Assembly (NCBI GenBank): GCA_964405845.1
Contig: CAYOPL010000013.1
Coordinates: 305-64,304 of the forward strand
Direction: 5' to 3'
Length of the DNA: 64,000 nucleotides
Source: an uncultured Dehalococcoidia bacterium
Lineage (GTDB): Bacteria > Chloroflexota > Dehalococcoidia > UBA6926
Shown: positions 1-13,951 of the stretch, piece after piece
Layout of the letters: every line of letters starts with the position of its first letter
How positions within the stretch are numbered: position 1 is the first letter of the stretch
Made by a program: the position numbers and the translations under genes
The notes under the pieces: model-generated
Database searches by the model: none
What the model was told of the DNA's origin: nothing
What the model saw: only the letters and a program-made list of their open reading frames with translations

Positions 1-912
1 ATTGGCGAAGAGACCGAAAAGCTCGCCGCCGCGCTTGGTCCCGGCGATGTCCTCTTCCTTGAAAACACGAGGTTCCACCCCGAAGAGGAGAAAAATGACC
101 CTGACAACGCCGCCGCCCTCGCCCGTCTCGCGGACATCTATGTGAATGACGCCTTTGGCTCCGCCCACCGCGCCCACGCCTCAACGGAGGGCGTCGCCCA
201 TCTCTTGCCCGCCGTCGCGGGATTCCTCCTTGATAAGGAGATACGGATGTTGGGCGGCATCCTCGAATCCCCCCGCCGTCCGCTGGCGACGCTCATGGGA
301 GGCGCAAAGGTCGGCGACAAGATGGCCGTCATGGAGCGACTCATCGAGAACTCGGACATGCTCATCGTCGGGGGCGGCATGGCCGCCGCGTTCCTCGAGG
401 CCCGCGGGATGCGAACCGGCAAGAGCCTGCTCGAAGACGACGGCCCTCAGATGGCCGGACGGATCGAAAGCGCCGCAAGAGCCCGCGGCATCCAACTACT
501 GATCCCGACCGACGTGATTGTGGCGACCGAACTCTCAGCCGATGCGGAGGCATCCGCCGTAAGCAGCGACGCCATCCCTGACGATGCGATGCTGCTGGAT
601 ATCGGCCCCGAAACGCGGGACATCTACACCCGCGCCCTGCGCCTCTGCCAGACCGTGCTCTGGAACGGCCCGATGGGCGTCTTTGAGTACGACCAATTCG
701 CCGGAGGAACCCAAGCCGTTGGGGAAAACCTTGCGCAATATGCGCGCGGGGGCACAACCGTTATTGTTGGCGGCGGCTCGACTGCCGAGGCCGTCGATGC
801 CCTGGGCTACGCAGACGCCATGACCCACGTCTCAACCGGCGGCGGCGCAGCCCTCGAATTCCTCGAAGGCCGAACCCTCCCCGGCATCGCCGCCCTCCAG
901 GACACTGACTGA
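1..912 (+). CDS. pgk: Phosphoglycerate kinase, C-terminal portion (5' end outside the window; reading frame is continuous from base 1)
   Basis: Translation from base 1 reads IGEETEKLAAALGPGDVLFLENTRFHPEEE...YVNDAFGSAHRAH...GGGMAAAFL...STGGGAALEFLEG, which carries the canonical PGK C-domain motifs. Stop at 910-912. Confidence 0.9.
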   Translation: MGEETEKLAAALGPGDVLFLENTRFHPEEEKNDPDNAAALARLADIYVNDAFGSAHRAHASTEGVAHLLPAVAGFLLDKEIRMLGGILESPRRPLATLMGGAKVGDKMAVMERLIENSDMLIVGGGMAAAFLEARGMRTGKSLLEDDGPQMAGRIESAARARGIQLLIPTDVIVATELSADAEASAVSSDAIPDDAMLLDIGPETRDIYTRALRLCQTVLWNGPMGVFEYDQFAGGTQAVGENLAQYARGGTTVIVGGGSTAEAVDALGYADAMTHVSTGGGAALEFLEGRTLPGIAALQDTD

Positions 913-923
913 ACCCCTTCGTC

Positions 924-1056
924 GTTCCCGCTTTCGCGGGAATCCAGTGCGGCGCGCAGCGCCGCCTCCCCCGTTCACCCTGAGCCTGTCGAAGGGTGAA
1001 CCCTCATCCATTCCGACCGCCTCTCAACATGTCATTCCGAGCGCAGCCGAGGAATC
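924..1056. repeat. Composite of three palindromic hairpin repeats: ttcccgc-tttc-gcgggaa at 924-944, gttcaccct-N11-agggtgaac at 973-1001, gtcattccgagcgcagccgaggaatc at 1031-1056. Related copies at 3425-3445 and 39985-40029.
   Basis: Perfect inverted repeats read directly in the sequence. The 975-996 segment (tcaccctgagcctgtcgaaggg) recurs at 3425-3445 (tcaccctgaccctgtgaaggg), and the cccgc-tttN-gcgggaat hairpin recurs at 40007-40026. Confidence 0.6.
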
Positions 1057-1085
1057 TAAAGCCTCATTGAATCCAGCAACTTGCC

Positions 1086-1091
1086 TATACT
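1086..1091 (+). promoter_or_regulatory. TATACT -10-like box upstream of the nuclease-cassette gene A (start 1137)
   Basis: The same ctatact motif recurs upstream of several other starts (3456, 5536, 7628, 20934 and 16283 on the minus strand). Confidence 0.3.
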
Positions 1092-1136
1092 GAACCATCC
1101 CCGCCTAACCTCCCCGCCTTTAACTGGGGCAGAACA

Positions 1137-2651
1137 ATGACTAACCAACCCCCTTACCAACTCTCCAAGACCAGATACATGGCCGGTCTTCAATGCCTCA
1201 AGCGGCTGTACCTGGAGGTTCATCATCGCGACCTTGCCGATCCCGTCGCTCCGAGCCAGCAAGCAATCTTTGATACCGGAAACCTGGTGGGGGAGTTGGC
1301 AAGGGACAGATTCCCTGGCGGCACTCTCATCGAAGAGCAGTACTACGAGCAGGACGGGGCAGACATTTCAACACGAGCGCTAATGTCGGATGCTTCCATT
1401 CCTGCCCTGTATGAGGCGGCGTTCTCGTTCGAGGGGATTAGGACAAGAGTAGACATCCTGACCAGAGCCGATGATGGGCAGGGATTCGATCTCATTGAAG
1501 TCAAATCGACGAGCCGCTTTAAGGAACGAGAGCACCTTCCGGATGTTGCGATTCAGTTGCACGTAGTGGAGGGGAACGGTGTGCCAATCCGCCGCGCGTA
1601 CCTGATGCATATCGACAATACCTACGTGTATGAGGGTGGGGAACACGACCTCACACGCCTCTTTGCCTTGGAGGATGTTACCGATACGGCGAGGGAATAC
1701 CTTGCTGATGTTGAGCCCGGCAAGCTGGCGGAGATGTGGGAGTCATTGGGTCAAGCCGCGACCCTTGACATAGAGACGGGCCGACATTGCACGTCCCCTT
1801 ACCGGTGCCTGTTCTATAGCCACTGCCATGCAGATGAGCCTGAACATCCGATTGCAGAACTCCCTCGACTATCGCAACGCGTAGAAGAACGACTCAAGAG
1901 GCTAGGGATTCGGGATATTGAGAGCATTCCGAGCGACGCGAGGGGCTTATCGAATGTACAGCGTCGGGTACGCGATAGCGTTATCACCGGCAAGCAATAT
2001 GTAGGCTCAGACCTCAGCGAGCGACTATCCGGAATTGAGTTTCCGGCGTCATTCCTGGACTTCGAGACGATTCTTACTGCTGTTCCTATATTCGTTGGGA
2101 CAAGGCCATACCAGCAGATTCCGTTCCAGTGGTCTCTCCATCTGCAGGAATCTGACGGCTCATTGTCGCACCGTGACTACCTGCACGATGGGGATGATGA
2201 CCCACGACAAGAGTTCGTCACCAGCCTACTCGAGGCCATCCCGGCCAGTGGCTCAATCGTCGTTTACTCCGGCTACGAAGAGCGAATTCTGCGACAGCTT
2301 GCCAGTGAGTTCCCTCAATACAAGGCTCAGTTGATTGCGCTTACCGCGCGGCTCGTCGATCTGCTGCAGATTGTGAGTGACTGCTATTACCACCCTAAGT
2401 TCCATGGGAGCTTCTCGATCAAATCGGTGACGCCCGTCCTCGCCCCTGAGCTTTCCTATGAGGAACTCGACATACCCGACGGCCTCGCCGCATCAGCCGC
2501 ATACCAACGCCTGCTCACCAATGATGTCCCGCCGTCGGAGGCCACAAAAGTCAGACAATCCCTGCTCACCTACTGCGCGCAGGACACCGAAGCAATGGTC
2601 CGTGTCTACCAGGCACTGCTAAGAGAGATTGCCAATACTGCCGATTCTTAG
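1137..2651 (+). CDS. Fused nuclease. N-terminal Cas4/RecB-like PD-(D/E)XK domain with a 4-Cys cluster, plus a C-terminal DEDD 3'-5' exonuclease-like (DUF2779-like) region.
   Basis: 504-aa ORF. The N-terminus SKTRYMAGLQCLKRLYL contains an early Cys. RVDILTR...GFDLIEVKST is a RecB-like motif II/III (D...EVK). CTSPYRCLFYSHC supplies three more Cys. The C-terminal LDFETI is Exo I-like D-x-E, and YCAQD is an Exo III-like Y-x3-D. Confidence 0.6.
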   Translation: MTNQPPYQLSKTRYMAGLQCLKRLYLEVHHRDLADPVAPSQQAIFDTGNLVGELARDRFPGGTLIEEQYYEQDGADISTRALMSDASIPALYEAAFSFEGIRTRVDILTRADDGQGFDLIEVKSTSRFKEREHLPDVAIQLHVVEGNGVPIRRAYLMHIDNTYVYEGGEHDLTRLFALEDVTDTAREYLADVEPGKLAEMWESLGQAATLDIETGRHCTSPYRCLFYSHCHADEPEHPIAELPRLSQRVEERLKRLGIRDIESIPSDARGLSNVQRRVRDSVITGKQYVGSDLSERLSGIEFPASFLDFETILTAVPIFVGTRPYQQIPFQWSLHLQESDGSLSHRDYLHDGDDDPRQEFVTSLLEAIPASGSIVVYSGYEERILRQLASEFPQYKAQLIALTARLVDLLQIVSDCYYHPKFHGSFSIKSVTPVLAPELSYEELDIPDGLAASAAYQRLLTNDVPPSEATKVRQSLLTYCAQDTEAMVRVYQALLREIANTADS

Positions 2652-2697
2652 CTGGCGATGGGCCTGAATCCGACCACCGAACACAAAAGGAGTCGCC

Positions 2698-3405
2698 ATG
2701 GGAATCCTTGGAATCAAAAACAGGACAGAAAACTGGAAGACGGCTCGAACATTCGCGCCGTTCTATGGTGCCAACAGTGTGCGTCTCGCACGCCGTCTGC
2801 TTGGCCCAGATGCAACTCTTGAGCCGGGTGATGTCCGGCTTGAATTGTTTTGGAAGGGCGTGCGCGACTTAATCGATGGTAGAAACAGAGGCCGGCCGAA
2901 GGCGGAGAAGAAGAAGTTCACTGACTATGAGGATGAGTTTGGTGCATCGTTTGAGAGACATTTTGGAGGCCTGCGCGCTGCGATCAAAAGATTTATTAAG
3001 GAACAACCCCGTGTATTAAATTCTCTCCGGGGGCGTAACTATACAACTAATGGCAACCTCGAAGATGGCACGAGCACCAAGACTAAGCTGGCGAGCAACC
3101 TAAACGGTATCGAAATCGATATCGTGCTTGAAACCCCGGAGCACCTCCTTATCGGCGAGGCGAAGGACGAATCAAATTTCGGCACGGACGGGAGTCAAGT
3201 TCTCGTTCACCAGCTAATGGGCCAGTACGTGCAAGCGACGGTTCTACTTGATGTTCTGAAGATCGAAAAACAGGTGATGCCCTTCATCGTCTGTGATGAT
3301 AAAGCCGCCGTCATGAGAAGCGGTCAGATACAGTTCATGCTACGGAAAGGCTGGCTGAAGGAAGACCGCATCCTCACGTGGGATGACATAGAGGCGTTGC
3401 GCTAG
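2698..3405 (+). CDS. Hypothetical protein with a PD-(D/E)XK-like motif (restriction-endonuclease-like fold). Lower GC than its surroundings.
   Basis: 235-aa ORF. The motif IEIDIVLETPEHLLIGEAKDE fits hhhD-x10-hGEAK. Codon usage is AT-richer than in the neighbouring genes. Confidence 0.55.
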   Translation: MGILGIKNRTENWKTARTFAPFYGANSVRLARRLLGPDATLEPGDVRLELFWKGVRDLIDGRNRGRPKAEKKKFTDYEDEFGASFERHFGGLRAAIKRFIKEQPRVLNSLRGRNYTTNGNLEDGTSTKTKLASNLNGIEIDIVLETPEHLLIGEAKDESNFGTDGSQVLVHQLMGQYVQATVLLDVLKIEKQVMPFIVCDDKAAVMRSGQIQFMLRKGWLKEDRILTWDDIEALR

Positions 3406-3424
3406 CGCCCACAGCCTCCCTCGC

Positions 3425-3445
3425 TCACCCTGACCCTGTGAAGGG
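3425..3445. repeat. Direct-repeat copy of the 975-996 element (tcaccctga[g/c]cctgt[c]gaaggg). Marks the right boundary of the nuclease cassette.
   Basis: About 20 of 22 nt are identical to 975-996, in the same orientation. Confidence 0.5.
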
Positions 3446-3473
3446 CCGCCCCCGCTATACTATCCACACTGAT

Positions 3474-4691
3474 ATGACCGACTTTGAACTGATCAAGAGC
3501 CTCGCCCGCAAGACCGACACCAAAATCGTCCTGCTTGTCATGGACGGACTGGGCGGCATCCCCCACCCGAAGACCCTCCGCACCGAGCTTGAGGCCGCGC
3601 AGACGGACAACCTGGATCGCCTCGCGCGCTCCTCGCAGACCGGCCTGTCCATCCCCGTTGCGCACGGCATTACGCCCGGCAGCGGCCCCGGCCACCTTGC
3701 CCTCTTCGGCTACGACCCGATCAAGTACCTCATCGGACGCGGCATCCTTGAAGCGCTTGGACTGGACATGGACGTCCGCGAGGGTGACATCGCCGCCCGA
3801 GGAAACTTCTGCACCATTGGCGAGGACGGCACGATAACCGACCGCCGCGCCGGCCGCATCTCAACCGACATCAACCGCGAGCTGACGGAGCGGCTGAATG
3901 ACATCACGCTTGACAAGGCGCAGGCCATCGCCGCCTCCGGCCGCGAGCATCGACTTGCCATAATATTCCGCCCAGAGGACGGCGGACCGCAGCTCAGCGA
4001 CGCCGTGACGGATAGTGACCCTCAAAGAGAGGGTTTAGCCCCCTTAAACGTCACTTCAAGCGCGGTTTTGGGCCAAAATACCGCCGACATTGTGAATTCC
4101 TTCCTCAAGGTTGCGATGTCCGTTATTGCTGATGCCCACCCCGCAAACGGCCTTGTTTTACGCGGATTTTCCACGACTCCCGATCTCCCCCAAATGTCGG
4201 ACATTTACGGCCTGGATCCTGCCGCGATCGCCTCATATCCAATGTACCGAGGCCTCGCCAAACTGGTCGGTATGAACGTCCTTCAGACTGGCGAAACTAT
4301 TGACCAACAGATTGAAACGGCGCGCGAAAATTGGGATACGCACGACTTCTTTTTCCTACATTACAAATACACCGACAGCGCAGGCGAAGACGGCGACTAC
4401 GATGCAAAAGTGGCCGCCATCGAGCGGCTGGATAGCGCCCTGCCCGCCCTGCTGGATCTCGATCCTGATGTTCTAATCGTGGCGGGAGACCATTCAACAC
4501 CAACCGCGATGGCCGCCCACAGCTGGCATCCGGTTCCCGTGATGATCCGGTCGCGGCACATCACCGCCGGCTTTGCAGAGGCGTTCACGGAGCGCGAATG
4601 CGCAAAAGGAATGCTGGGAACCATGGCGGCGACGGACATCATGCCGTTGGCGCTCGCCAATGCCGGTAAGCTGGACAAGTTCGGCGCGTAG
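3474..4691 (+). CDS. apgM: 2,3-bisphosphoglycerate-independent phosphoglycerate mutase, archaeal type (apgM family)
   Basis: MTDFELIKSLARKTDTKIVLLVMDGLGG...GHLALFGYDP...LHYKYTDSAGEDGD...VAGDHSTP matches the aPGM family. ATG at 3474 is preferred over GTG at 3438 because a TATACT box lies at 3456-3461. Confidence 0.8.
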   Translation: MTDFELIKSLARKTDTKIVLLVMDGLGGIPHPKTLRTELEAAQTDNLDRLARSSQTGLSIPVAHGITPGSGPGHLALFGYDPIKYLIGRGILEALGLDMDVREGDIAARGNFCTIGEDGTITDRRAGRISTDINRELTERLNDITLDKAQAIAASGREHRLAIIFRPEDGGPQLSDAVTDSDPQREGLAPLNVTSSAVLGQNTADIVNSFLKVAMSVIADAHPANGLVLRGFSTTPDLPQMSDIYGLDPAAIASYPMYRGLAKLVGMNVLQTGETIDQQIETARENWDTHDFFFLHYKYTDSAGEDGDYDAKVAAIERLDSALPALLDLDPDVLIVAGDHSTPTAMAAHSWHPVPVMIRSRHITAGFAEAFTERECAKGMLGTMAATDIMPLALANAGKLDKFGA

Positions 4692-4718
4692 CGCCATCCC
4701 AACAGAGAGGTAATACCC

Positions 4719-5489
4719 ATGCCATCCACCCGAACGCCGCTGATTGCCGGCAACTGGAAGATGAACACCACGCTCGCCGAGGCGCGAATCCTTGCCTACA
4801 ACGTTGTTCACATGGTCGGCGTTCCCAAGGGCGTTGACGTGGCCGTGTGCCCGCCGTTCGTCTCGCTGCCCATCGTTGCCGAGGCACTGCGCGGATCACC
4901 CGTCGCGCTCGGCGCGCAGAACCTGTATCCGGCAGAGTCAGGCGCGTACACGGGAGAGGTTGCGCCGAACATGCTGCAGGGCCTGTGCCGTTACGTGATT
5001 GTCGGCCACTCAGAGCGCCGCGCCTATTTCGCGGAGGCTGACGAGTTCGTGAATGCAAAGGTCCACACCGCCCTCAAATACGGCCTCACCCCGATCATGT
5101 GCGTCGGCGAAACGCTCCAGCAACGAGAGGCAGGCGAAACGGAAGACATCCTCAAGACGCAAACATCCGGCGGGCTAGCTGATGTGGATGACGTTTCAGC
5201 GGTTGTCGTTGCCTACGAACCCGTTTGGGCTATCGGCACGGGCGTGGCGGCAACACCGGACGACGCGCGTGAGGGAATCGCCGTCATCCGCAGCACAATC
5301 GCAGAGGCCCATGGGCAGGACACAGCCGACTCCGTCCGCATTCTTTACGGGGGCTCCATGAACCCGGAGAACGTTGCGTCGCTGCTTGAGCAGCCGGGCA
5401 TTGACGGAGGTTTGATTGGCGGCGCGTCACTCAACGCAGAGCAGTTCGTTGCACTGGTTCGAGCGGCGGAAGAACGCGAGCGCGAATAA
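4719..5489 (+). CDS. tpiA: Triosephosphate isomerase
   Basis: PLIAGNWKMNTTLAEA...IVGHSERR...AYEPVWAIGTG...GGASL are the canonical TIM motifs. Confidence 0.92.
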   Translation: MPSTRTPLIAGNWKMNTTLAEARILAYNVVHMVGVPKGVDVAVCPPFVSLPIVAEALRGSPVALGAQNLYPAESGAYTGEVAPNMLQGLCRYVIVGHSERRAYFAEADEFVNAKVHTALKYGLTPIMCVGETLQQREAGETEDILKTQTSGGLADVDDVSAVVVAYEPVWAIGTGVAATPDDAREGIAVIRSTIAEAHGQDTADSVRILYGGSMNPENVASLLEQPGIDGGLIGGASLNAEQFVALVRAAEERERE

Positions 5490-5648
5490 CCCCTGCTCCA
5501 TCCCAATTGCAATTCGAACAACCCATTCCGTTGTCTATACTGAATATAGGCAAAAGCGCATGGTCATAACGATATCCGAATCAGCCTGACTCGCTACCAC
5601 TGCCACATCGTTCTCTAAGGACAAAGAATTCAGGAGGAAAGCAGCAGC

Positions 5649-6650
5649 ATGTCCACAGGTTCCACCCTTCGCATCGGTCTCGTCGGCGCAGGCCGATTCT
5701 CTCAGCGGCGTGTCGTGCCGGAACTCGCAAAGGTTCCCGGTGTCGAGTTCGTTGCCGTCGCGAATAACAGCGCCGAGTCAACTGCCCGCGTCGCCGAGCA
5801 ATTCAACGTTGCTACACAAGCATCCTCCTGGCAGGACGTTGTTTCCTCGCCGGACGTTGACCTTGTCTTCAACGGGACCCAGGCCCCGCAGCATCGCGAC
5901 ATCTTGCTTGGCGCGCTGGAGAACGACAAACATCTTCTCACTATGAATCCCCTGGCCATGACCGGTGCGGAGGGGCGTGAGATCGTAGCGGCACTTGAGG
6001 CGCGGCCCCAGCTCAAGGCGCGGCAATATCCCGCATTCCCCGGCGGCCCGTACGACCGTGAAGACGCTCTTGTCCTACGACTGTTAGCTGCGGGGCGTAT
6101 CGGGCGTGTACTAAGCGCGGAGATGTACTGGCATACGCCCTTCCTCGCCTTTGGCAGTTACTTTGACATCCTCAATCGATGGTTGGGGGCGCATCAGCGT
6201 TTGTTGGTCGTTCGCAAACAGCACGAGGTGGACAACCGACGCGTTGGCTTCTCAGCCATCCTCGCGGACCTCGGGGATGACGTCGCCGTCCGCTACGTGC
6301 ATGACAATCTCGCGCCGAAGACCACGCAAAACGCTCACATCGCTCTCCACGGGGAAGAGGGCAGCATCATCATTGAGGGCTATCCTCCCGATCCGTTGTC
6401 GTCCGTGCGTATCGCGTCAGGTGATGGCGAAGCGGAGGTCGTGCCTGTTCCGGGCGATCTGCGACAAGCTTATGAGGACGAGCGGCGCGTCAATATCGAG
6501 GAGCAGTTCCTCGGATGGGTAATGGGTGGCGCGGAACCGACTCCACTCCTTCTGACCTTGCAGCAGGGCTTGCAGTCCATTGGTGCGGCGGAGGCGTTCG
6601 TGGCCTCAATGCGACAGGGCGGTGCCTGGGTGGAGTTGCCGCAAGACTAG
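5649..6650 (+). CDS. Gfo/Idh/MocA family NAD(P)-dependent oxidoreductase
   Basis: N-terminal Rossmann-type LRIGLVGAGRFSQRRVVPEL; 333 aa. Confidence 0.75.
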   Translation: MSTGSTLRIGLVGAGRFSQRRVVPELAKVPGVEFVAVANNSAESTARVAEQFNVATQASSWQDVVSSPDVDLVFNGTQAPQHRDILLGALENDKHLLTMNPLAMTGAEGREIVAALEARPQLKARQYPAFPGGPYDREDALVLRLLAAGRIGRVLSAEMYWHTPFLAFGSYFDILNRWLGAHQRLLVVRKQHEVDNRRVGFSAILADLGDDVAVRYVHDNLAPKTTQNAHIALHGEEGSIIIEGYPPDPLSSVRIASGDGEAEVVPVPGDLRQAYEDERRVNIEEQFLGWVMGGAEPTPLLLTLQQGLQSIGAAEAFVASMRQGGAWVELPQD

Positions 6651-6696
6651 GCTCCACACTAACGCGCGCTATTTCGAACAAGGCCAAATTGCACCC

Positions 6697-7614
6697 ATGG
6701 GCACACCGGTCATTGCGCTCGTCGGGGCAACGGCCGTTGGCAAGTCGGTCGTCGCAGTAGAACTCGCTAGACGCATTGAGGGCGAAATCATCAACGCGGA
6801 CAGCCGACAGGTCTATCGCGGCATGGCAATTGGCACGGGCATACCCTCTGATGAAGAACGCGGCGGTGTCCCACACCATCTCTATGGCATATCTGAACCG
6901 GATGACGACTTCTCTCTGGGACGGTTTCTCACAGCCGCCACGTGCGCCATAGAGGACATCCATGAGCGGGGAAAAACGCCAATCATTGTAGGTGGCACCG
7001 GCCAATACGTGTGGGCCTTGCTTGAGGGATGGAACGTTCCTGAGGTGGCGCCGAATCCTGAGCTGCGAGAAGAACTGATGGAGCGTGCTGAAGTCGAGGG
7101 GCGCGACGCCCTGCACGAGGAACTCCGCCGCCTTGACCCCGCCGCCGCAGAACTCATCCACCCCAACAACCTGATTCGTACTGTGCGCGCCCTTGAAGTT
7201 GTCAGGACAACGGGCCGCCCCTTCTCAGAGCAGCGCACCCAAACTGCCCCGCCCTGGGACATACGACTCTGCGGCATCAGCATGGAACGCGAGGCACTGG
7301 ACGCGCGTATCGAACAGCGCGTTGACCGCCAATTGGAGACCGGCTGGATCGACGAGGTCAAAAATCTCCTGGAGCAGGGCTACTCACCATCGCTGTCGTC
7401 ATTCCGCAGCATCGGCTACAGAGAGATAGCGGCGCACATTGAGGGTGGCATACCTTTTGATGAGATGCGGCAAGCCATCATTCACAAGACGCGCCGATTC
7501 GCCCGAACGCAATTCGCGTGGTTCCGCGCCGATGACGAGCGCATCACATGGATGGATGCGAGCCAGAGTACGGAGCAGTTAGCTGAACAGATACAAGCTA
7601 CGTTGGGACTCTGA
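6697..7614 (+). CDS. miaA: tRNA dimethylallyltransferase
   Basis: MGTPVIALVGATAVGKSVVAVELARRIEGEIINADSRQVYRGMAIGTG contains the P-loop and the DSRQVY motif. Start taken at the internal ATG at 6697. Confidence 0.85.
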   Translation: MGTPVIALVGATAVGKSVVAVELARRIEGEIINADSRQVYRGMAIGTGIPSDEERGGVPHHLYGISEPDDDFSLGRFLTAATCAIEDIHERGKTPIIVGGTGQYVWALLEGWNVPEVAPNPELREELMERAEVEGRDALHEELRRLDPAAAELIHPNNLIRTVRALEVVRTTGRPFSEQRTQTAPPWDIRLCGISMEREALDARIEQRVDRQLETGWIDEVKNLLEQGYSPSLSSFRSIGYREIAAHIEGGIPFDEMRQAIIHKTRRFARTQFAWFRADDERITWMDASQSTEQLAEQIQATLGL

Positions 7615-7639
7615 CAGCGGACGGCGGTATACTTTGGCT

Positions 7640-8515
7640 ATGAATTTCACGAAGATGCACGGCACGGGCAACGACTTCATCGTCGTTGAGGGCGGTCCTG
7701 CCGAGGCCGATTCCACGAATTGGCCGGAGGTGGCACGCGAGGCGTGCAGCCGCCGGTTCGGCGTGGGCGCAGACGGCATTCTTGTCATTCGCCCCTCAGA
7801 TGATGCCGCCTTGCAGATGCAGATCTTCAACCCGGATGGCTCCGAGGCAGAGATGTGCGGCAACGGCATCCGCTGCGTCACCAAGTACGCCATCGAGCGC
7901 GGTATCGTCGATAGCTCAGCGCTCCGCAACGAGGCCGGTCTTCCCATTGAGACGCTCGGGGGGCTTATGACCGTGTGGCCGCAGAACGGCAGCTCATCGG
8001 GCGCGATTGAGGCTGTGCGTGTTGGCATGGGCGCGCCGATACTTGAACCCAGCGAAATCCCTGTGGCCGTGAATGGCCCGGCGCCTGTGCAGGGTCACAC
8101 GCTTGAGGTAGGTGGCTACGCCCTGAGTCTTTCCTTTATTTCCATGGGAAATCCCCACGCCATCGCATTCATCGACACACCGGTCGCGGACTTCCCGCTT
8201 GAGACTATCGGGCCGATGGTTGAAAACCATCCCCTGTTCCCGGAGCGGGTCAACTTTGAAATCGTCAATATCCGGTCTCGCGAAGAGATAACCATGCGCG
8301 TGTGGGAACGAGGCGCAGGCCTCACCATGGCGTGCGGCACCGGCGCTTGCGCGGTTGTTGTCGCAGCACGCATTGCCGGGATGGTGGATGATTGCGTGTC
8401 AGTTGAGTTGCCGGGCGGGTCGCTCACCATCGAGTGGGACGGCAACCCGGACAGCCAGGTCTACATGACCGGCCCTGCCACAACGGTTTACGCCGGACAA
8501 CTGCTCACGAACTAG
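7640..8515 (+). CDS. dapF: Diaminopimelate epimerase
   Basis: MNFTKMHGTGNDFIVV...EAEMCGNGIRC...ACGTGACAVV carries both catalytic Cys motifs. A TATACT box at 7628-7633 sits 6 nt before the ATG at 7640. An alternative TTG start lies at 7634. Confidence 0.85.
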   Translation: MNFTKMHGTGNDFIVVEGGPAEADSTNWPEVAREACSRRFGVGADGILVIRPSDDAALQMQIFNPDGSEAEMCGNGIRCVTKYAIERGIVDSSALRNEAGLPIETLGGLMTVWPQNGSSSGAIEAVRVGMGAPILEPSEIPVAVNGPAPVQGHTLEVGGYALSLSFISMGNPHAIAFIDTPVADFPLETIGPMVENHPLFPERVNFEIVNIRSREEITMRVWERGAGLTMACGTGACAVVVAARIAGMVDDCVSVELPGGSLTIEWDGNPDSQVYMTGPATTVYAGQLLTN

Positions 8516-9788
8516 GCCGCTCAGCGGTTCCTGATTCAGCAGCAGTCTCCGATTCGATGTACGTTCGCGCGAGGCGCGCGGGCAGTTGCGGCCGCTTCAT
8601 TGTTAGGTACATATACAAGGAAATTACCGCCATCAGGCCAAGCGAGAAGAATGCCCACCGGTATCCGTCCGCGCCGTATTGATCAAACATGTACCCGGCG
8701 AAAATCGGCGCGAAGACCCCTCCCATTGCTGTAAACGTGAACTGCAGGCCCAAAAGCCGGCCATAGATCTGTCTGCCAAAGAGTTCTCCAAGCAGAGCCG
8801 ATCGAGGCGGGTTGCCAAGACCAAACCCGAACCCGAAGAACACGGCGAAAATGACGGCCGTAATCGGGTCCCGCGCAAAGAAGAATAGCACCGCGCCTAT
8901 GATCTGCATCGCGAACGAGATTGAGACGATTTTGCGTTTGTCATACATGTCAGCAAGAATGCCGCCGAGGATCCGCGCCGGGAAACTGGCAAGCGGCAGG
9001 AGCGTGATCAGTGCGGTGGCCCATTCATCACTGAATCCGAACTCGTTCCACACCTTGAACTGGTGAATGATGAACGAGCCAAAGAAAATGAACCCGAAAA
9101 TGTTCGCCACAACGTACTTCCAGTACGTCGATGTTCTGATCGCCTCCTTCACTGTGAACGTCGTATCGGCATAGCGGTCATCCTGATCCATCTCAGCGAA
9201 TCGCGCTGCCTCAGCCTCGCTCATGCCATCTGGATGCAGCCCGTACTTCTCAGGTGCGTCCCGCATCATCAGTCCGAGCGGCAGACCGACAATAAACGTC
9301 GTGATTCCCAGGTAGAAAAGCGCATCCCTCCATTCAAAGAGGGCGATCAAGCCAACGACGAGCGGAACAAGCAGGGCGCTAACACCCGCTCCGTAGGACA
9401 CGATAGCCATGGCCGTGCCACGCCGACGGATGAACCAGGCGTTGACGGCGGTGTTGACCGTAAGGAAAGAGCCGAACGCGAGACCAAACGCCATTACTGC
9501 GAACGCGGCGAAGAAATGCCACAACTCCTGCACCAAACTCAGCCCGATGAACCCGCAGCCGAGAATGAACATGCCGCCAAGCACGGATTTGCGTGGCCCA
9601 AAGCGGTCAACGACATATCCAACGATTGGGCCAAAAATGCCCTGCTCGGTCCGCTGAAAGGCGAATGCGATGGAGGCCACGGCGGCCGGCCACTTAAACT
9701 CGTCAATGATTTCATCGAAGAACGGCGCGAAGCCGTAGAAGAACACACCGGCTGTGTAGAACAAGACGCCGAAACTGGCAATCGCCAA
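8505..9788 (-). CDS. MFS transporter (paralog 1 of 4)
   Basis: 427 aa with about 12 predicted TM helices. The G-x3-D-R/K-x-G-R-R/K-like loop is read as VGYVVDRFGPRK. Confidence 0.8.
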   Translation of the reverse strand: MAIASFGVLFYTAGVFFYGFAPFFDEIIDEFKWPAAVASIAFAFQRTEQGIFGPIVGYVVDRFGPRKSVLGGMFILGCGFIGLSLVQELWHFFAAFAVMAFGLAFGSFLTVNTAVNAWFIRRRGTAMAIVSYGAGVSALLVPLVVGLIALFEWRDALFYLGITTFIVGLPLGLMMRDAPEKYGLHPDGMSEAEAARFAEMDQDDRYADTTFTVKEAIRTSTYWKYVVANIFGFIFFGSFIIHQFKVWNEFGFSDEWATALITLLPLASFPARILGGILADMYDKRKIVSISFAMQIIGAVLFFFARDPITAVIFAVFFGFGFGLGNPPRSALLGELFGRQIYGRLLGLQFTFTAMGGVFAPIFAGYMFDQYGADGYRWAFFSLGLMAVISLYMYLTMKRPQLPARLARTYIESETAAESGTAERPSS

Positions 9789-9946: not shown

Positions 9947-11245
9947 TTATGCAGATGCCGGAGGTGGTACGGTGGCCGGTCGTGGGCGCGTTACCGTGAG
10001 TGTCAGCGGTACAGATAGGCTCAGGATCGCGGCGACGATCACGAATCCGATCACGTAGCTGTCCGTCTGATCGTAGAGCCAGCCTATAGCAACCGGCGAC
10101 ATGATAGCCGGCAATGAGGCCAGCCCCTGCTGAATACCAGCTACCCGCCCAAATATCGACAGTCCCCAGTACTCTGCCTGCAGCGCCAGCCGCACCGATG
10201 ATTGTGAGCCGATGGCGCTTCCCAGGAGAAATCCGGCGAGTATCGTCAGCCACGGAACAGTTGACATGGGTATCAGTACAATCGCGATCCCCTGCACGGT
10301 GATTCCTATGGCAAGCACCACCCGCTTGTCCACGTAGTCGGCTATCGTCCCGGCAATAACGCGAATGGGAATGCTCGAGGATGTCTGCCACGCGAACATG
10401 AAGGCAATGAACTCTTTGGAGAATCCATTCTTCTGCAGGATGAGCGCCTCGTACGTGATGATGGACCAGGACGCGCCCAGCAGTGCGCTCGCTAGGACAT
10501 ACTGCCAATAGCCCCGGCTACGCAGTACGTCTCGCAGCGTGAAATTGGCCTCCGGCAAGATGTTCGCGCGAGATGACGGCGCAGTCTGGTCCTCGGGTGG
10601 ATCGCCGCCGTCGGGCACCATGCCGTAGTCCTGCGGCCTGTTGCGGATGAGGGGAATCAGGAGCATCCCGACAACCCAGAACCCCACACCCGCGCCGAAC
10701 AGGACGGATCGCCAACCAAACTCCGGGATGATCCACGCCCACACTCCTGCCAGCAGGCCGGACATGCCCGGCCCAACAATCATGATTCCGTTAGCACGAC
10801 CCCGAAATCGCCGAAACCACGCGTTGATCGCCGCGGCCGTCACGATGAATGACCCGGCGCTGAGGCCGAAGGCAAAGACGATGAAGACTCCGTAGTACTG
10901 CCAGATGTTGTTAACCTGGCTCATCAGCATGCAGCCGCCGCCGGAAACGAAGTAGCCGACTATCAGGATCTTACGAGCGCCATATCGATCAACGAGGTAA
11001 CCGGTCAAGGGAGCGGTGATGCCGGATTCCAGTCGCTGTAGAGAAGGACCGATGCCAGCCAGCGCCTGCGACCATCCAAAGTGCGTCACCATCGCAGCGA
11101 AGAAGTTGGAGAAGCCCCAGAAGCCGATGCCGTCCGTGTAGGCGGCAAGCCCCGTGCCCGACAGCGTCACCCACCAGCCATAGAAGACCTGCCGCGGATG
11201 CCGGGCGAACATCCACGCCGTCATAACGGTTTTCTGGGTCCTCAT
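9947..11245 (-). CDS. MFS transporter (paralog 2 of 4)
   Basis: 432 aa. LTGYLVDRYGARK motif. N-terminal FYGWWVTLSG is shared with paralog 3. Confidence 0.8.
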   Translation of the reverse strand: MRTQKTVMTAWMFARHPRQVFYGWWVTLSGTGLAAYTDGIGFWGFSNFFAAMVTHFGWSQALAGIGPSLQRLESGITAPLTGYLVDRYGARKILIVGYFVSGGGCMLMSQVNNIWQYYGVFIVFAFGLSAGSFIVTAAAINAWFRRFRGRANGIMIVGPGMSGLLAGVWAWIIPEFGWRSVLFGAGVGFWVVGMLLIPLIRNRPQDYGMVPDGGDPPEDQTAPSSRANILPEANFTLRDVLRSRGYWQYVLASALLGASWSIITYEALILQKNGFSKEFIAFMFAWQTSSSIPIRVIAGTIADYVDKRVVLAIGITVQGIAIVLIPMSTVPWLTILAGFLLGSAIGSQSSVRLALQAEYWGLSIFGRVAGIQQGLASLPAIMSPVAIGWLYDQTDSYVIGFVIVAAILSLSVPLTLTVTRPRPATVPPPASA

Positions 11246-12537
11246 GTCGTGGCAAGCCTCACTTCATCGGCGGCGCCACTCCTCGGACGCGTCATCATAA
11301 GCACCATGATCACGGCCAGAGCAAGAGGAACAACGACTGTCATAAACGCGATACGGTAATCGTACGTGTCCGCGAGCCAACCCACCACCACAGGCGAAAT
11401 CAAGCCGCCAATCGCCCCTGCCCCAACCTGCAGGCCCATCAGTGAGCCGAAGATTCCGCGGCCCCAGTAATCGCCCTGCAATGACAGCCGCGCCGCGTTG
11501 CTGCCACCCCACCCCGTGCCATAGATGACCTCAAAGATGATGGCCACCCAGATGTTGGCGACGAAGACGAACAGGATCCCTCCCGCCAGTTGAAAGCTCA
11601 GCATCGTCGCCACGACAAGCCGCTTGTCGAATCGATCTGCGAGCGCGCCGGAGAAGAATCGCATTGGGATGCTCGCAACAGTGAAAACAACCACCATCGC
11701 GCCCGCCGTCTCCATGGAGAAGCCGTAGCTGACAAGCGCGGGGATGTGGTGGACAACCATCGCCGTGATGGCCACCTGCTGCATGGAAAGCGCGCCGACA
11801 TAGAGCAAGTATGAACGACTCAACAGGATGGATCGCACCGTTCCCGGCGACGGCTCAGGCTCAGCCGCATCTCCTGCTTGCCCTGATTCCGAGTCGTTTG
11901 TCTCCGGCGGATCGCCGTCCATGCGCAGGCCGTAATGCTCCGGCCGCCTCCGCAGAACCATGGCGAGCGGGATGCACGTTATCCACGTTCCGATGCCCGT
12001 GAACAGGGCAGCGTCGCGCCAACCGTACTCCCCTATCAGCACGACGAGCAGCGCCGTCATGATGCCCCCGAAGCCCGGCCCCATGAAGGTCAGGCCCAGC
12101 GCCTTGCCACGGTTGCGCAGGAACCAGTTGCTGACGGCGGTCGCCACCATCACGTAGGATGTTGCGCCCATGCCGCTGCCGATGAGGATGAACGCGACGT
12201 AGTATTGCCACGCGTGCTCAACTTGGCTCAGGACGATGAATCCCGCCCCGCCGCTGAACATCGCCACCGCCGTGACGAGACGAGGCCCAAACCGGTCCGT
12301 GAGCGCACCGATAGTCGGACTCAAAATCGCCGTGAACACCGCCATCATGGCGGGCCCGCGTGAAACCTGCTCCCGCGTCCAGTTCAGATCCAGTCGGATA
12401 CTGTCAAAGAACGCGCTGAACCCAAAGAAACTGACGCCCGTCGTGTAGAACATCAGGTACATGCCGGACAGCGCCATCCACCAGCCATAGAAAAGGCGCG
12501 GGCGGCGGCGGCGTGGTGCTGAAACGTCAGCAGTCAT
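11242..12537 (-). CDS. MFS transporter (paralog 3 of 4)
   Basis: 431 aa. LFYGWWMALSG...GALTDRFGPR. 4-bp start/stop overlap with paralog 2. Confidence 0.8.
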   Translation of the reverse strand: MTADVSAPRRRRPRLFYGWWMALSGMYLMFYTTGVSFFGFSAFFDSIRLDLNWTREQVSRGPAMMAVFTAILSPTIGALTDRFGPRLVTAVAMFSGGAGFIVLSQVEHAWQYYVAFILIGSGMGATSYVMVATAVSNWFLRNRGKALGLTFMGPGFGGIMTALLVVLIGEYGWRDAALFTGIGTWITCIPLAMVLRRRPEHYGLRMDGDPPETNDSESGQAGDAAEPEPSPGTVRSILLSRSYLLYVGALSMQQVAITAMVVHHIPALVSYGFSMETAGAMVVVFTVASIPMRFFSGALADRFDKRLVVATMLSFQLAGGILFVFVANIWVAIIFEVIYGTGWGGSNAARLSLQGDYWGRGIFGSLMGLQVGAGAIGGLISPVVVGWLADTYDYRIAFMTVVVPLALAVIMVLMMTRPRSGAADEVRLATT

Positions 12538-13892: not shown

Positions 13893-13951
13893 GCGCCACT
13901 GTAGGCGTGGGCGTGAGCCAAACACAAACATAAATGACAGTCGCCTCAGAT

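What the first reader, a model, noticed from the sequence alone, without database searches (positions are those of the whole stretch)
1137..2651. Gene A combines a Cas4/RecB-like PD-(D/E)XK nuclease with a 4-Cys cluster and a C-terminal DEDD-exonuclease-like region
Read directly from the translation. An N-terminal Cys lies in SKTRYMAGLQCLKRLYL. RVDILTR...GFDLIEVKST is a RecB-type motif II/III. CTSPYRCLFYSHC supplies three more Cys, giving the C-x(n)-C-x5-C-x5-C Fe-S arrangement seen in Cas4/AddB. The C-terminal half has LDFETI (Exo I-like D-x-E) and YCAQD (Exo III-like Y-x3-D), so a DnaQ-fold exonuclease is plausible. The region resembles what databases call DUF2779. A single polypeptide joining an endo/5'-exonuclease fold to a 3'-5' exonuclease fold would be capable of bidirectional DNA end-processing.
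Basis: partly seen in the sequence, partly recalled or inferred. Interest (0 to 1): 0.6.

Follow-up and report, generated by a model that had tools for sequence, protein, structure and literature searches.

The report
Two-nuclease DUF2779 gene, inserted cassette
Gene A is a typical member of the large, uncharacterised DUF2779 family, which joins an iron-sulfur Cas4-like nuclease to a proofreading-type 3'-5' exonuclease; this design is already published, and what is new is that the gene arrived here with a second small nuclease gene as an insertion into a glycolysis operon.

Summary
The key residues are 96-100% conserved across 139 diverse relatives: C20/C218/C224/C230, D106/E121/K123, D308/E310, Y479/D483.

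The N-terminal half is a Cas4/AddB-like PD-(D/E)XK nuclease with a four-Cys "iron staple". The C-terminal half is the Pfam domain DUF2779 (E=1.9e-41), a DEDDy/PolB-exo-like fold.

Three details need correcting:
- The catalytic Asp is D106.
- The Cys triad spacing is C-x5-C-x5-C, not the canonical CX2CX5C.
- The Exo II acid is probably E381.

The architecture is not new. It was described computationally in 2014 (NAR) and 2026 (mSphere). I found no biochemical study.

New here:
- Gene A plus the downstream 235-aa gene B (a predicted PD-(D/E)XK nuclease with no Pfam family) form a 2.3-kb insertion into a conserved pgk-apgM-tpiA operon.
- The A-B pair recurs in about 40% of Dehalococcoidia loci.

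The most likely function is metal-dependent processing of DNA ends from both strands. Whether the biological role is repair or defence is unresolved.

The parts
1137..2651 (+). Gene A: 504-aa DUF2779-family protein (two-nuclease fusion), stop codon included
   Evidence: ORF; Pfam DUF2779 E=1.9e-41; more than 5,458 homologs; 9,670 cluster representatives
1137..1841 (+). N-terminal Cas4/AddB-like PD-(D/E)XK nuclease domain (about residues 1-235)
   Evidence: Foldseek top hit is Cas4 4r5q; 27/92 relatives hit Pfam Cas_Cas4; PADLOC Cas4 E=0.004; strand and helix core at residues 90-180 modelled at pLDDT 76-91
1194..1196 (+). Codon for C20, the N-terminal ligand of the putative Fe-S 'iron staple'
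   Evidence: 96% conserved; invariant in A1 and A2
1452..1505 (+). Catalytic core D106 (RVDIL) ... E121-V-K123 (IEVK)
   Evidence: 99%, 96% and 98% conserved. D118 inside this span is only 41% conserved.
1788..1826 (+). Cys triad C218-x5-C224-x5-C230
   Evidence: 99-100% conserved; this spacing in 125/140 family members; low pLDDT in the model, as expected without the cluster
1842..2036 (+). Linker (about residues 236-300) with the conserved LPR...L..GI..I.DIP motif, possibly helix-hairpin-helix-like
   Evidence: Conserved L242, P243, L253, G257, I258, P265; helices at 247-255 and 273-284 modelled at pLDDT about 83-91. The HhH reading is inference only; there is no Pfam hit.
2037..2648 (+). 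C-terminal DEDDy (PolB-exo/DnaQ-like) 3'-5' exonuclease domain. Exo I is D308-x-E310, Exo II is probably S378-x-Y-E381, Exo III is Y479-x3-D483. D408 and K429 are also conserved.
   Evidence: Pfam DUF2779 and RNase_H_2; pLDDT mostly 86-97; Foldseek hits to 3'hExo, ExoI, ERI2 and PolB; conservation
2698..3405 (+). Gene B: 235-aa partner protein with an N-terminal helical domain (invariant NRTENWKT motif) and a C-terminal PD-(D/E)XK-like core (E139, D141, E154-x-K156, H171-Q172)
   Evidence: About 381 homologs with no Pfam family; invariant residues; model pLDDT 91; Foldseek hits only to PD-(D/E)XK enzymes, best E=0.017; weak NERD/DUF6997 hits; adjacent to gene A homologs in 35/82 loci
1073..3440 (.). 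Window-specific segment holding exactly gene A and gene B. It is absent from the otherwise collinear closest relative (L096), so it is an inserted cassette.
   Evidence: blastn collinearity of window 1-946, 1030-1072 and 3441-9000 with L096; 28 bp in L096 stand in place of this segment; pgk abuts apgM in 16 further loci
964..989 (+). Left copy of a 26-nt direct repeat, part of a possible hairpin
   Evidence: 23/26 identical to 3414-3439; only two matches in 64 kb, with 0 expected
3414..3439 (+). Right copy of the 26-nt direct repeat, just upstream of apgM
   Evidence: L096 has one diverged copy at this position (compared by eye)
142..912 (+). 3' part of pgk (phosphoglycerate kinase), the upstream flank of the insertion
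   Evidence: ORF translation; 89% identical to the L096 ortholog
3438..4691 (+). apgM (cofactor-independent phosphoglycerate mutase), the downstream flank. The true start is probably the ATG at 3474.
   Evidence: Pfam Metalloenzyme and PhosphMutase; orthologs align from MTDFELIK

Best explanation
Gene A encodes a single polypeptide with two independent, divalent-metal-dependent nuclease active sites that act on DNA ends.

- N-terminal domain: a Cas4/AddB/Dna2-type PD-(D/E)XK nuclease. The catalytic residues are D106, E121 and K123, with Q140 and perhaps E93 assisting. The fold is 'stapled' by a metal cluster, most likely [4Fe-4S], held by C20 plus C218/C224/C230. By analogy with assayed Cas4 enzymes, it should cut single-stranded DNA 5'->3' or clip 5' flaps.
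- Linker: a conserved linker of about 65 residues joins the two domains.
- C-terminal domain: a DEDDy exonuclease of the PolB-exo/DnaQ type. Its residues are D308 and E310 (Exo I), probably E381 (Exo II), and Y479 and D483 (Exo III). It should remove nucleotides 3'->5'.

Together the two sites could trim or destroy both strands at a DNA end without a separate partner nuclease.

In this genome the gene arrived with gene B, a second predicted PD-(D/E)XK nuclease, as a 2.3-kb cassette inserted between pgk and apgM.

Shown: motifs, conservation, fold similarity, family membership, the insertion, and the A-B linkage.

Inferred: metal and cluster binding, polarity, DNA as the substrate, and cooperation with gene B.

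The biological role is most likely DNA-end processing in repair or damage tolerance for chromosomal copies, with the same enzyme recruited as an effector in defence islands elsewhere.
For: - Motifs are present and 96-100% conserved in 139 diverse relatives.
- Pfam DUF2779 E=1.9e-41. 27/92 relatives hit Cas_Cas4 and 31/92 hit RNase_H_2.
- AlphaFold model: mean pLDDT 78.9, with the exonuclease domain at 86-97. Foldseek hits are Cas4 4r5q (E=4.6e-4), Dna2, ACE1, MGME1 and AddAB/AdnAB for one half, and 3'hExo, ExoI, ERI2 and PolB 5mdn (probability 0.99) for the other.
- Published HHpred analysis of a Mycoplasma member reaches the same two-nuclease conclusion, and the gene is quasi-essential there (PMC13621843). 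Majorek et al. place DUF2779 in the 3'-5' exonuclease clade together with DUF83 (PMC3985635).
- Repair link: dinB sits directly upstream and co-oriented in 7/80 Dehalococcoidia loci, 4 with ATGA overlap. Mfd is nearby in 5.
- Cassette: the collinear relative L096 lacks window 1073-3440. Gene B is adjacent in 35/82 loci, while the flanking genes differ.
Against: - No member of the family has been assayed, and no solved structure is detectable by sequence or profile.
- The Cys-bearing segments are modelled at pLDDT below 50.
- The Cys spacing differs from the canonical CX2CX5C (PMC3439918), so zinc or a different cluster is possible.
- This protein's own Cas4 and RNase_H_2 hits fall below the curated thresholds.
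- Foldseek E-values are weak: only one is at or below 0.001.
- The Exo II residue assignment is not statistically supported (hhalign probability 0.4%).
- Context evidence points two ways, towards repair and towards defence.
- The A-B link is not obligatory: 2 of 4 sampled gene B homologs stand alone.
Confidence: 0.6

Rival explanations
1. The A-B cassette is a mobile anti-phage or anti-plasmid defence module. Gene A would be the effector that degrades invading linear DNA from both ends, and gene B would nick or sense the target.
For: - The cassette is an insertion without housekeeping linkage, and it sits at a different locus (glmS-uppP) in gene A's closest relatives.
- On plasmids, DUF2779 genes sit among defence-type genes: an IetA-like AAA ATPase, WYL, PDC-M27A/B, a PLD nuclease and a DEAD helicase in Rhodoferax; ORC/Cdc6-like, a ResIII helicase, an MzaB-like GHKL ATPase and PLD in Planktothrix; PDC-S26 and WYL in Aliarcobacter; WYL, TM0106 and PD-(D/E)XK in Sphingobium.
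Against: - Neither gene A nor gene B matches any PADLOC system model apart from a weak Cas4 hit.
- There is no methyltransferase, sensor ATPase or other self/non-self component in the cassette.
- Neighbours in 80 Dehalococcoidia loci are metabolic genes or dinB/mfd.
- The gene is widespread and apparently inherited vertically in the class (532 genomic relatives).
- It is quasi-essential in a phage-free minimal Mycoplasma (PMC13621843).
- It is nearly absent from phages (6 partial hits).
Confidence: 0.25
2. Only one of the two domains is catalytically relevant. The other serves as a DNA-binding or structural module, so there is no bidirectional processing.
For: - Fe-S clusters in Cas4-family enzymes can be purely structural (PMC12501428).
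- The Mycoplasma member has lost two of the four Cys (PMC13621843).
- The Exo II acid is Glu rather than Asp.
Against: Every predicted catalytic residue of both sites is 96-100% conserved over 139 diverse sequences. That level of conservation is not expected for a degenerate domain.
Confidence: 0.1
3. The enzyme acts mainly on RNA or on nucleic-acid turnover for nucleotide salvage, rather than on DNA ends in repair or defence.
For: - Many DEDD enzymes are RNases, and Foldseek hits include 3'hExo and ERI2.
- A Mycoplasma bovis DUF2779 transposon mutant was recovered in a cell-culture survival screen alongside nanoRNase and phosphodiesterase mutants (PMC7373297).
Against: - Assayed Cas4/AddB/Dna2-type Fe-S nucleases are DNases (PMC3466216, PMC12501428).
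- The exonuclease domain resembles polymerase-type proofreading domains (PMC3985635).
- Neighbours are DNA enzymes: dinB, helicases, PLD and PD-(D/E)XK nucleases.
Confidence: 0.05
4. It is a CRISPR-associated Cas4 that trims prespacers during adaptation, with the DEDD domain playing the role that DEDDh plays in Cas2-DEDDh fusions.
For: Cas4 and DEDDh exonucleases are both known prespacer trimmers (PMC10284694, listed). Gene A carries relatives of both.
Against: - There is no CRISPR-like array in the window.
- No cas1 or cas2 appears among the recurrent neighbours in 80 loci.
- The family is distinct from Cas_Cas4 by Pfam.
Confidence: 0.02

Closest known systems
DUF2779 family (Pfam PF11074; family F.17 of Majorek et al. 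2014; MMSYN1_0389 of JCVI-syn3.0; Mbov_0804)
   Same: Gene A is a full member. It has the same two-domain architecture over its whole length, the same D...ExK and DEDDy residues, and a Tyr in Exo III (PMC3985635; PMC13621843).
   Different: Gene A keeps all four Cys, whereas MMSYN1_0389 has only two (PMC13621843). It is about 500 aa, whereas the Mycoplasma domain boundaries (about 380 and about 460) imply a longer protein. It travels with gene B, a partner not reported before.
Cas4 / AddB / Dna2 'iron-staple' RecB-like nucleases (Pfam Cas_Cas4 PF01930; PDB 4r5q, 4ic1)
   Same: A PD-(D/E)XK core with Asp ... Glu-x-Lys, one N-terminal and three C-terminal Cys spanning the nuclease core, and the best structural match of the model.
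   Different: The triad spacing is C-x5-C-x5-C rather than CX2CX5C (PMC3439918). The Tyr of the QxxxY motif is not kept (position 144 is mostly Leu). There is no cas context. The domain is fused to an exonuclease rather than to a helicase or Cas1. This protein's own hits to the family models are below threshold.
DEDDy 3'-5' exonucleases of the PolB-exo / RNase_H_2 (PF13482) group, and DEDDh enzymes such as MrfB, ExoI and 3'hExo
   Same: Exo I D-x-E on the first strand, Exo III Y-x3-D on the last helix, the RNase H-like strand order in the model, and Foldseek matches.
   Different: Exo II appears to carry Glu (S-x-Y/F-E381) rather than Asp. There are extra invariant residues, D408 and K429. The domain is not attached to a polymerase. 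The RNase_H_2 score is 21.6 bits, just under the cut-off of 22.
TM0106 family / COG2251 RecB-like putative nucleases (NCBIfam TIGR03491; RNase_H_2 plus a RecB-like domain)
   Same: The same idea of a RecB-like nuclease joined to an RNase H-like exonuclease (PMC3985635, family F.13). There is weak similarity at E=2.1e-7. A TM0106 gene lies near a DUF2779 gene on a Sphingobium plasmid.
   Different: The score of 30.3 bits is far below the 97.45 cut-off, so this is a sister family and not the same one.
[not shown]

Membership tests
DUF2779 (Pfam PF11074) | Match to the family HMM above the curated gathering score | tested here: met
   141.7 bits against a cut-off of 23.3, E=1.9e-41, residues 306-427, covering model positions 2-126 of 126
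DUF2779 (Pfam PF11074) | Full-length two-domain architecture shared with family members | tested here: met
   Nearly all of the best 150 representatives align over query residues 8-496. All 92 aligned relatives hit DUF2779.
Cas4/AddB-type RecB-like nuclease | PD-(D/E)XK catalytic motif Asp ... Glu-x-Lys | tested here: met
   D106, E121 and K123 are 99%, 96% and 98% conserved
Cas4/AddB-type RecB-like nuclease | Four Cys 'iron staple': one N-terminal and three C-terminal Cys spanning the nuclease core | tested here: met
   C20, C218, C224 and C230 are 96-100% conserved
Cas4/AddB-type RecB-like nuclease | Canonical CX2CX5C spacing of the C-terminal triad | tested here: not met
   C-x5-C-x5-C in 125/140 family members, against CX2CX5C in Dna2/AddB (PMC3439918)
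Cas4/AddB-type RecB-like nuclease | Match of this protein to Pfam Cas_Cas4 (PF01930) above threshold | tested here: not met
   No Pfam Cas_Cas4 hit at E<=1 for this protein and PADLOC Cas4 E=0.004. However, 27/92 relatives hit Cas_Cas4 at E<0.01, best 7.9e-9.
Cas4/AddB-type RecB-like nuclease | Structural similarity to a solved Cas4 | tested here: met
   Foldseek hit to 4r5q: E=4.6e-4, probability 1.00, 170 columns. The match covers only the N-terminal domain and the rmsd is high (8.6 A).
CRISPR-associated Cas4 (adaptation module) | Genomic association with cas1/cas2 and a CRISPR array | tested here: not met
   No array in the window and no cas genes among the recurrent neighbours of 80 loci
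Cas4/AddB-type RecB-like nuclease | Bound Fe-S cluster and metal-dependent DNase activity | not testable with these tools
   This needs purified protein: UV-visible absorbance at about 410-420 nm, iron content, and nuclease assays
DEDD(y) 3'-5' exonuclease (RNase H-like clan) | Exo I D-x-E and Exo III (Y/H)-x3-4-D motifs | tested here: met
   D308 and E310 are 100% conserved; Y479 and D483 are 99% conserved
DEDD(y) 3'-5' exonuclease (RNase H-like clan) | Exo II acidic residue (N-x2-3-F/Y-D) | tested here: inconclusive
   S378-x-Y-E381 follows strand 373-376 at the start of helix 380-391, and E381 is 98% conserved. The hhalign alignment to E. coli Pol II Exo II is not significant (probability 0.4%). 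D408 (99%) is an alternative candidate.
DEDD(y) 3'-5' exonuclease (RNase H-like clan) | Match to an RNase H-like exonuclease HMM (PF13482 RNase_H_2) above threshold | tested here: inconclusive
   21.6 bits against a cut-off of 22 for this protein. 31/92 relatives hit at E<0.01, best 8.3e-11.
DEDD(y) 3'-5' exonuclease (RNase H-like clan) | DnaQ-like fold | tested here: met
   Model pLDDT 86-97 in this domain. Foldseek hits to 3'hExo, ExoI, ERI2, RNase HI and PolB 5mdn (probability 0.99, rmsd 4.6 A over 225 columns), though all E-values are at or above 0.01.
Known anti-phage defence systems (PADLOC-DB v2) | Match of gene A or gene B to a system component model | tested here: not met
   Only a weak Cas4 hit for gene A and nothing for gene B
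PD-(D/E)XK nuclease superfamily (gene B) | Asp ... Glu-x-Lys core on a restriction-endonuclease-like fold | tested here: met
   D141, E154 and K156 are invariant in 51 sequences. The model has pLDDT 91. All interpretable Foldseek hits are PD-(D/E)XK enzymes, but the best E-value is only 0.017. 8/51 members give weak NERD hits.

The most novel reading that the evidence does not exclude
Gene A and gene B together form an undescribed, self-contained two-nuclease module that moves between chromosomal sites without its own recombinase. In this reading gene B, a Chloroflexota-restricted PD-(D/E)XK protein with a novel N-terminal NRTENWKT domain, makes the entry cut or recognises the substrate. The DUF2779 enzyme then degrades both strands from that cut. 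This would be either a minimal defence system or a portable break-processing kit that substitutes for RecBCD/AddAB in this lineage.
Probability: 0.25. Interest if true: 0.55.

Novelty: new member of a known kind. Interest (0 to 1): 0.3.

Why it matters
DUF2779 is a very large family: 9,670 clusters at 50% identity. It is present across bacterial phyla and quasi-essential in the minimal cell JCVI-syn3.0, yet I found no biochemical study of it. A canonical four-Cys member with a clear partner gene and contrasting contexts (dinB operons against defence islands) gives concrete mutants and partners to test.

The architecture itself is already in the literature, so this window adds context and corrected target residues. 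It does not add a new kind of system.

Tried and rejected
- **PDB sequence and profile searches.** They found nothing meaningful.
- **hhalign of the exonuclease-domain profile against E. coli Pol II and DnaQ.** Not significant (probability 0.4%). The Exo II assignment therefore rests on motif position and conservation only.
- **Promoter and terminator scan of 700-5600.** No promoter-like sites, and only within-gene terminator-like hairpins at or below the shuffle expectation.
- **tRNA and Rfam scans.** Empty, so there is no tRNA-type integration site.
- **The 26-nt direct repeat as a target-site duplication.** Rejected as a simple explanation. The insertion point lies 83 bp to the right of copy 1, and the relative L096 has a single diverged copy only at the copy-2 position.
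- **CRISPR association.** Rejected.
- **Phage origin.** Rejected: only six partial hits, in Helicobacter phage records.
- **Defence genes elsewhere in the window.** Only a housekeeping-type PcrA/UvrD helicase, which hits GajB models generically.
- **D118 as a catalytic residue.** Rejected at 41% conservation.
Full report
**1. The observation**

The ORF is real and sits exactly where stated: 1137-2651, + strand, ATG start, 504 aa.

The guess that databases would call this DUF2779 is correct. Pfam PF11074 scores 141.7 bits against a cut-off of 23.3 (E=1.9e-41) over residues 306-427. A near-threshold RNase_H_2 hit covers residues 358-494. NCBIfam gives only sub-threshold similarity to the UU173 and TM0106 RecB-like families. 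PADLOC gives only weak Cas4 hits over residues 84-166.

The 1137 start is better supported than the 490-aa public call that starts at M15 (P0001). L9, S10, K11 and R13 are at least 90% conserved. In a relative, the start upstream of the LSKSRF motif overlaps the preceding gene's stop codon as ATGA.

**2. More than chance**

One word-indexed search returned 5,458 significant homologs. An exhaustive HMMER search of cluster representatives returned 9,670 at E<=1e-3 and 2,839 at E<=1e-30, almost all aligning over query residues 8-496. The two-domain architecture is therefore the family norm.

Conservation in 139 representatives that are 35-54% identical to the query:

| Residue(s) | Conservation |
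|---|---|
| C20 | 96% |
| C218, C224 | 100% |
| C230 | 99% |
| D106 | 99% |
| E121 | 96% |
| K123 | 98% |
| Q140 | 99% |
| D308, E310 | 100% |
| E381 | 98% |
| D408, K429, Y479, D483 | 99% |

The motif II aspartate is D106.

**3. Folds**

An AlphaFold2 model built from 40 homologs has mean pLDDT 78.9 and pTM 0.75. The exonuclease domain is modelled at pLDDT 86-97 and the PD-(D/E)XK sheet at 76-91. Only the Cys-bearing segments (1-49 and 211-228) fall below 50, as expected for a cluster-binding region modelled without its cluster.

Independent sequence support comes from 92 diverse relatives: 27 hit Pfam Cas_Cas4 (best E=7.9e-9) and 31 hit RNase_H_2 (best E=8.3e-11). Two plasmid orthologs cover PADLOC Cas4 models end to end. 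No solved structure of the family is detectable by sequence or profile.

**4. Corrections of detail**

- The canonical iron-staple signature of Dna2/AddB is C-x(n)-CX2CX5C (PMC3439918), and Cas4 shares the one-plus-three arrangement (PMC3466216). Gene A and 125 of 140 family members have C-x5-C-x5-C instead. The topology is the same, but the spacing is family-specific.
- The Tyr of the RecB QxxxY motif is not kept. Position 144 is mostly Leu.
- In the exonuclease domain, the Exo II acid is most likely E381. It lies in S378-x-Y-E381, directly after strand 373-376 and at the start of helix 380-391, and it mirrors N-x2-F/Y-D. An hhalign comparison with E. coli Pol II placed it opposite NVVQFD but was not significant (probability 0.4%). 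D408 and K429 are equally conserved and have no assigned role.

**5. What is already known**

- Majorek et al. 2014 placed DUF2779 (their family F.17) in the 3'-5' exonuclease clade of the RNase H-like superfamily. They noted that it co-occurs with DUF83, a PD-(D/E)XK (Cas4) domain (PMC3985635).
- A 2026 mSphere paper analysed the DUF2779 protein MMSYN1_0389 of JCVI-syn3.0 by HHpred. [quoted passage not shown] The gene is quasi-essential, and the authors argue for a role beyond immunity (PMC13621843).
- A Mycoplasma bovis transposon mutant in a DUF2779 gene was recovered in a screen for survival in cell culture (PMC7373297).
- Searches for DUF2779, PF11074 and MMSYN1_0389 found no biochemical study.

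**6. Context in this window**

The organism is a Dehalococcoidia bacterium (Chloroflexota), judged from 80 genomic loci with 50-82% identical relatives.

The local gene order is pgk (to 912), gene A, gene B (2698-3405, a 46-bp gap after gene A), apgM, tpiA, an oxidoreductase, miaA and dapF.

The glycolytic neighbours are not conserved around gene A homologs, but gene B is. It lies immediately downstream and co-oriented in about 30 of 80 genomic loci (35 of 82 loci with any gene B match) at 35-50% identity.

The closest relative of the flanking genes (L096; 79-92% amino-acid identity) is collinear with window 1-946, 1030-1072 and 3441-9000, but it has 28 bp where the window has 1073-3440. Sixteen further loci have pgk next to apgM, mostly within about 20-30 bp. 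A+B is therefore a 2.3-kb insertion into a conserved pgk-apgM-tpiA operon.

In gene A's own closest relatives (84-87% identity), the same A-B pair sits between glmS and uppP.

The cassette contains no recombinase. A 26-nt direct repeat (964-989 and 3414-3439; 23/26 identical, unique in the window) brackets it, but it is not a simple target duplication.

**7. Gene B**

The family is small, with about 381 clusters. It has no Pfam domain, and the few named members are Dehalococcoidia or Chloroflexi hypothetical proteins.

Invariant residues include an N-terminal NRTENWKT motif plus E139, D141, G153-E154-x-K156 and H171-Q172. The AlphaFold model is confident (pLDDT 91.2, pTM 0.90).

All interpretable Foldseek hits for the C-terminal part, which span about 65-110 residues, are PD-(D/E)XK enzymes: Nt.BspD6I, McrC, HincII, Hjc, XisH and AF1548. 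Can2 also appears but aligns poorly over a much longer stretch. The best E-value is only 0.017. Eight of 51 members give weak NERD hits.

Two of four sampled gene B homologs are adjacent to a DUF2779 gene and two stand alone. The linkage is therefore frequent but not obligatory.

**8. Context elsewhere**

Two themes appear.

*Repair.* A Y-family polymerase gene (dinB; Pfam IMS and IMS_C) lies directly upstream and co-oriented in 7 of 80 Dehalococcoidia loci, four of them with an ATGA stop/start overlap. mfd lies upstream and divergent in five.

*Defence.* On plasmids the family is rare (33 of 72,556 records). Of the eight contexts examined, five hold defence-type neighbours (a sixth, Hydrogenimonas, has only an HNH endonuclease, an integrase and an AAA ATPase several kilobases away):
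- Rhodoferax: IetA-like AAA ATPase, DUF2779, WYL, PDC-M27A, PDC-M27B (PLD), DEAD helicase.
- Planktothrix: ORC/Cdc6-like, ResIII helicase, MzaB-like GHKL ATPase, DUF2779, PLD.
- Aliarcobacter: PDC-S26 PD-(D/E)XK, DUF2779, WYL/WCX.
- Sphingobium: WYL, DUF2779, and nearby TM0106 and PD-(D/E)XK nucleases.
- Selenomonas: NERD, AAA ATPase and WYL nearby.

The window itself has no CRISPR array, tRNA, Rfam hit or recognisable defence system.

**9. Mechanism and verdict**

The best-supported reading is a single polypeptide with two active metal-dependent nuclease sites acting on DNA ends. One is a Cas4/AddB-like Fe-S-stapled 5' nuclease and the other is a DEDDy 3'-5' exonuclease. In this genome it arrived with a second small PD-(D/E)XK nuclease.

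Motifs, conservation, fold similarity, the insertion and the A-B linkage are shown. Cluster binding, polarity, substrate and A-B cooperation are inferred.

As a finding, this is a correct reading of a typical member of a known, computationally described but experimentally untouched family. Interest is modest. The added value is the corrected catalytic residues and the A-B cassette.

Noticed in passing
window 2698-3405 (+): Gene B is a 235-aa protein with no Pfam family. It has a confident model (pLDDT 91) and a PD-(D/E)XK-like core (D141, E154-x-K156, H171-Q172) behind a novel N-terminal domain with an invariant NRTENWKT motif. The family is small (about 381 clusters), apparently restricted to Chloroflexota, and often sits next to DUF2779 genes.
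   Followed up: yes
window 1073-3440, compared with L096 4940-4967: Gene A plus gene B form a 2.3-kb insertion into a conserved pgk-apgM-tpiA-oxidoreductase-miaA-dapF block. The closest relative has 28 bp at that position. The cassette contains no recombinase gene.
   Followed up: yes
window 964-989 and 3414-3439: A 26-nt direct repeat (23/26 identical, unique in the 64 kb) brackets the cassette. Copy 1 can form a 9-bp hairpin (GTTCACCCT...AGGGTGAAC). It is not a simple target-site duplication, and its meaning is unresolved.
   Followed up: partly
L096 4581-4883 (+): In the closest relative, the pgk-apgM spacer holds a different small ORF (up to 100 aa, no Pfam hit) where the window has 947-1029. 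This suggests the spacer is a hotspot for small insertions.
   Followed up: partly
L056, L058, L063, L064, L065, L070, L075 (just upstream of the gene A homolog, e.g. L064 4904-6004): A dinB (Y-family DNA polymerase IV) gene lies directly upstream of and co-oriented with the DUF2779 gene. In four loci the stop and start codons overlap as ATGA, an operon-like link to DNA damage tolerance.
   Followed up: partly
[not shown]
   Followed up: partly
L086 (Rhodoferax plasmid), L089 (Planktothrix plasmid), L087 (Aliarcobacter plasmid), L177 (Sphingobium plasmid): Plasmid-borne DUF2779 genes sit beside WYL regulators, PLD nucleases, DEAD/ResIII helicases, IetA-like or MzaB-like ATPases, and PADLOC candidate systems PDC-M27 and PDC-S26.
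   Followed up: partly
L011 and L012 (two contigs of one MAG, Langseth_MAG_00123): The same metagenome-assembled genome carries two gene A homologs, both 64% identical to the query and each followed by a gene B homolog. This could be a duplicated cassette or strain heterogeneity in the bin.
   Followed up: no
window 58068-60590 (+): An 840-aa ORF has no Pfam or PADLOC match at E<=1e-5. It lies in the lowest-GC, A-rich stretch of the window (GC 0.557 and AT skew 0.17 for 58-60 kb).
   Followed up: no
window 47236-49461 (-) and 46064-47212 (-): A PcrA/UvrD-type helicase with a tudor domain hits GajB models generically. Its downstream neighbour gives a partial hit to the C-terminus of BrxHI. No complete defence system is evident.
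   Followed up: no
window 9947-13931 (-): Three consecutive genes of similar size on the minus strand (432, 431 and 465 aa). The first and third hit Pfam MFS_1; the middle one was not scanned. A fourth MFS gene lies at 8505-9788. This looks like a local paralog expansion.
   Followed up: no
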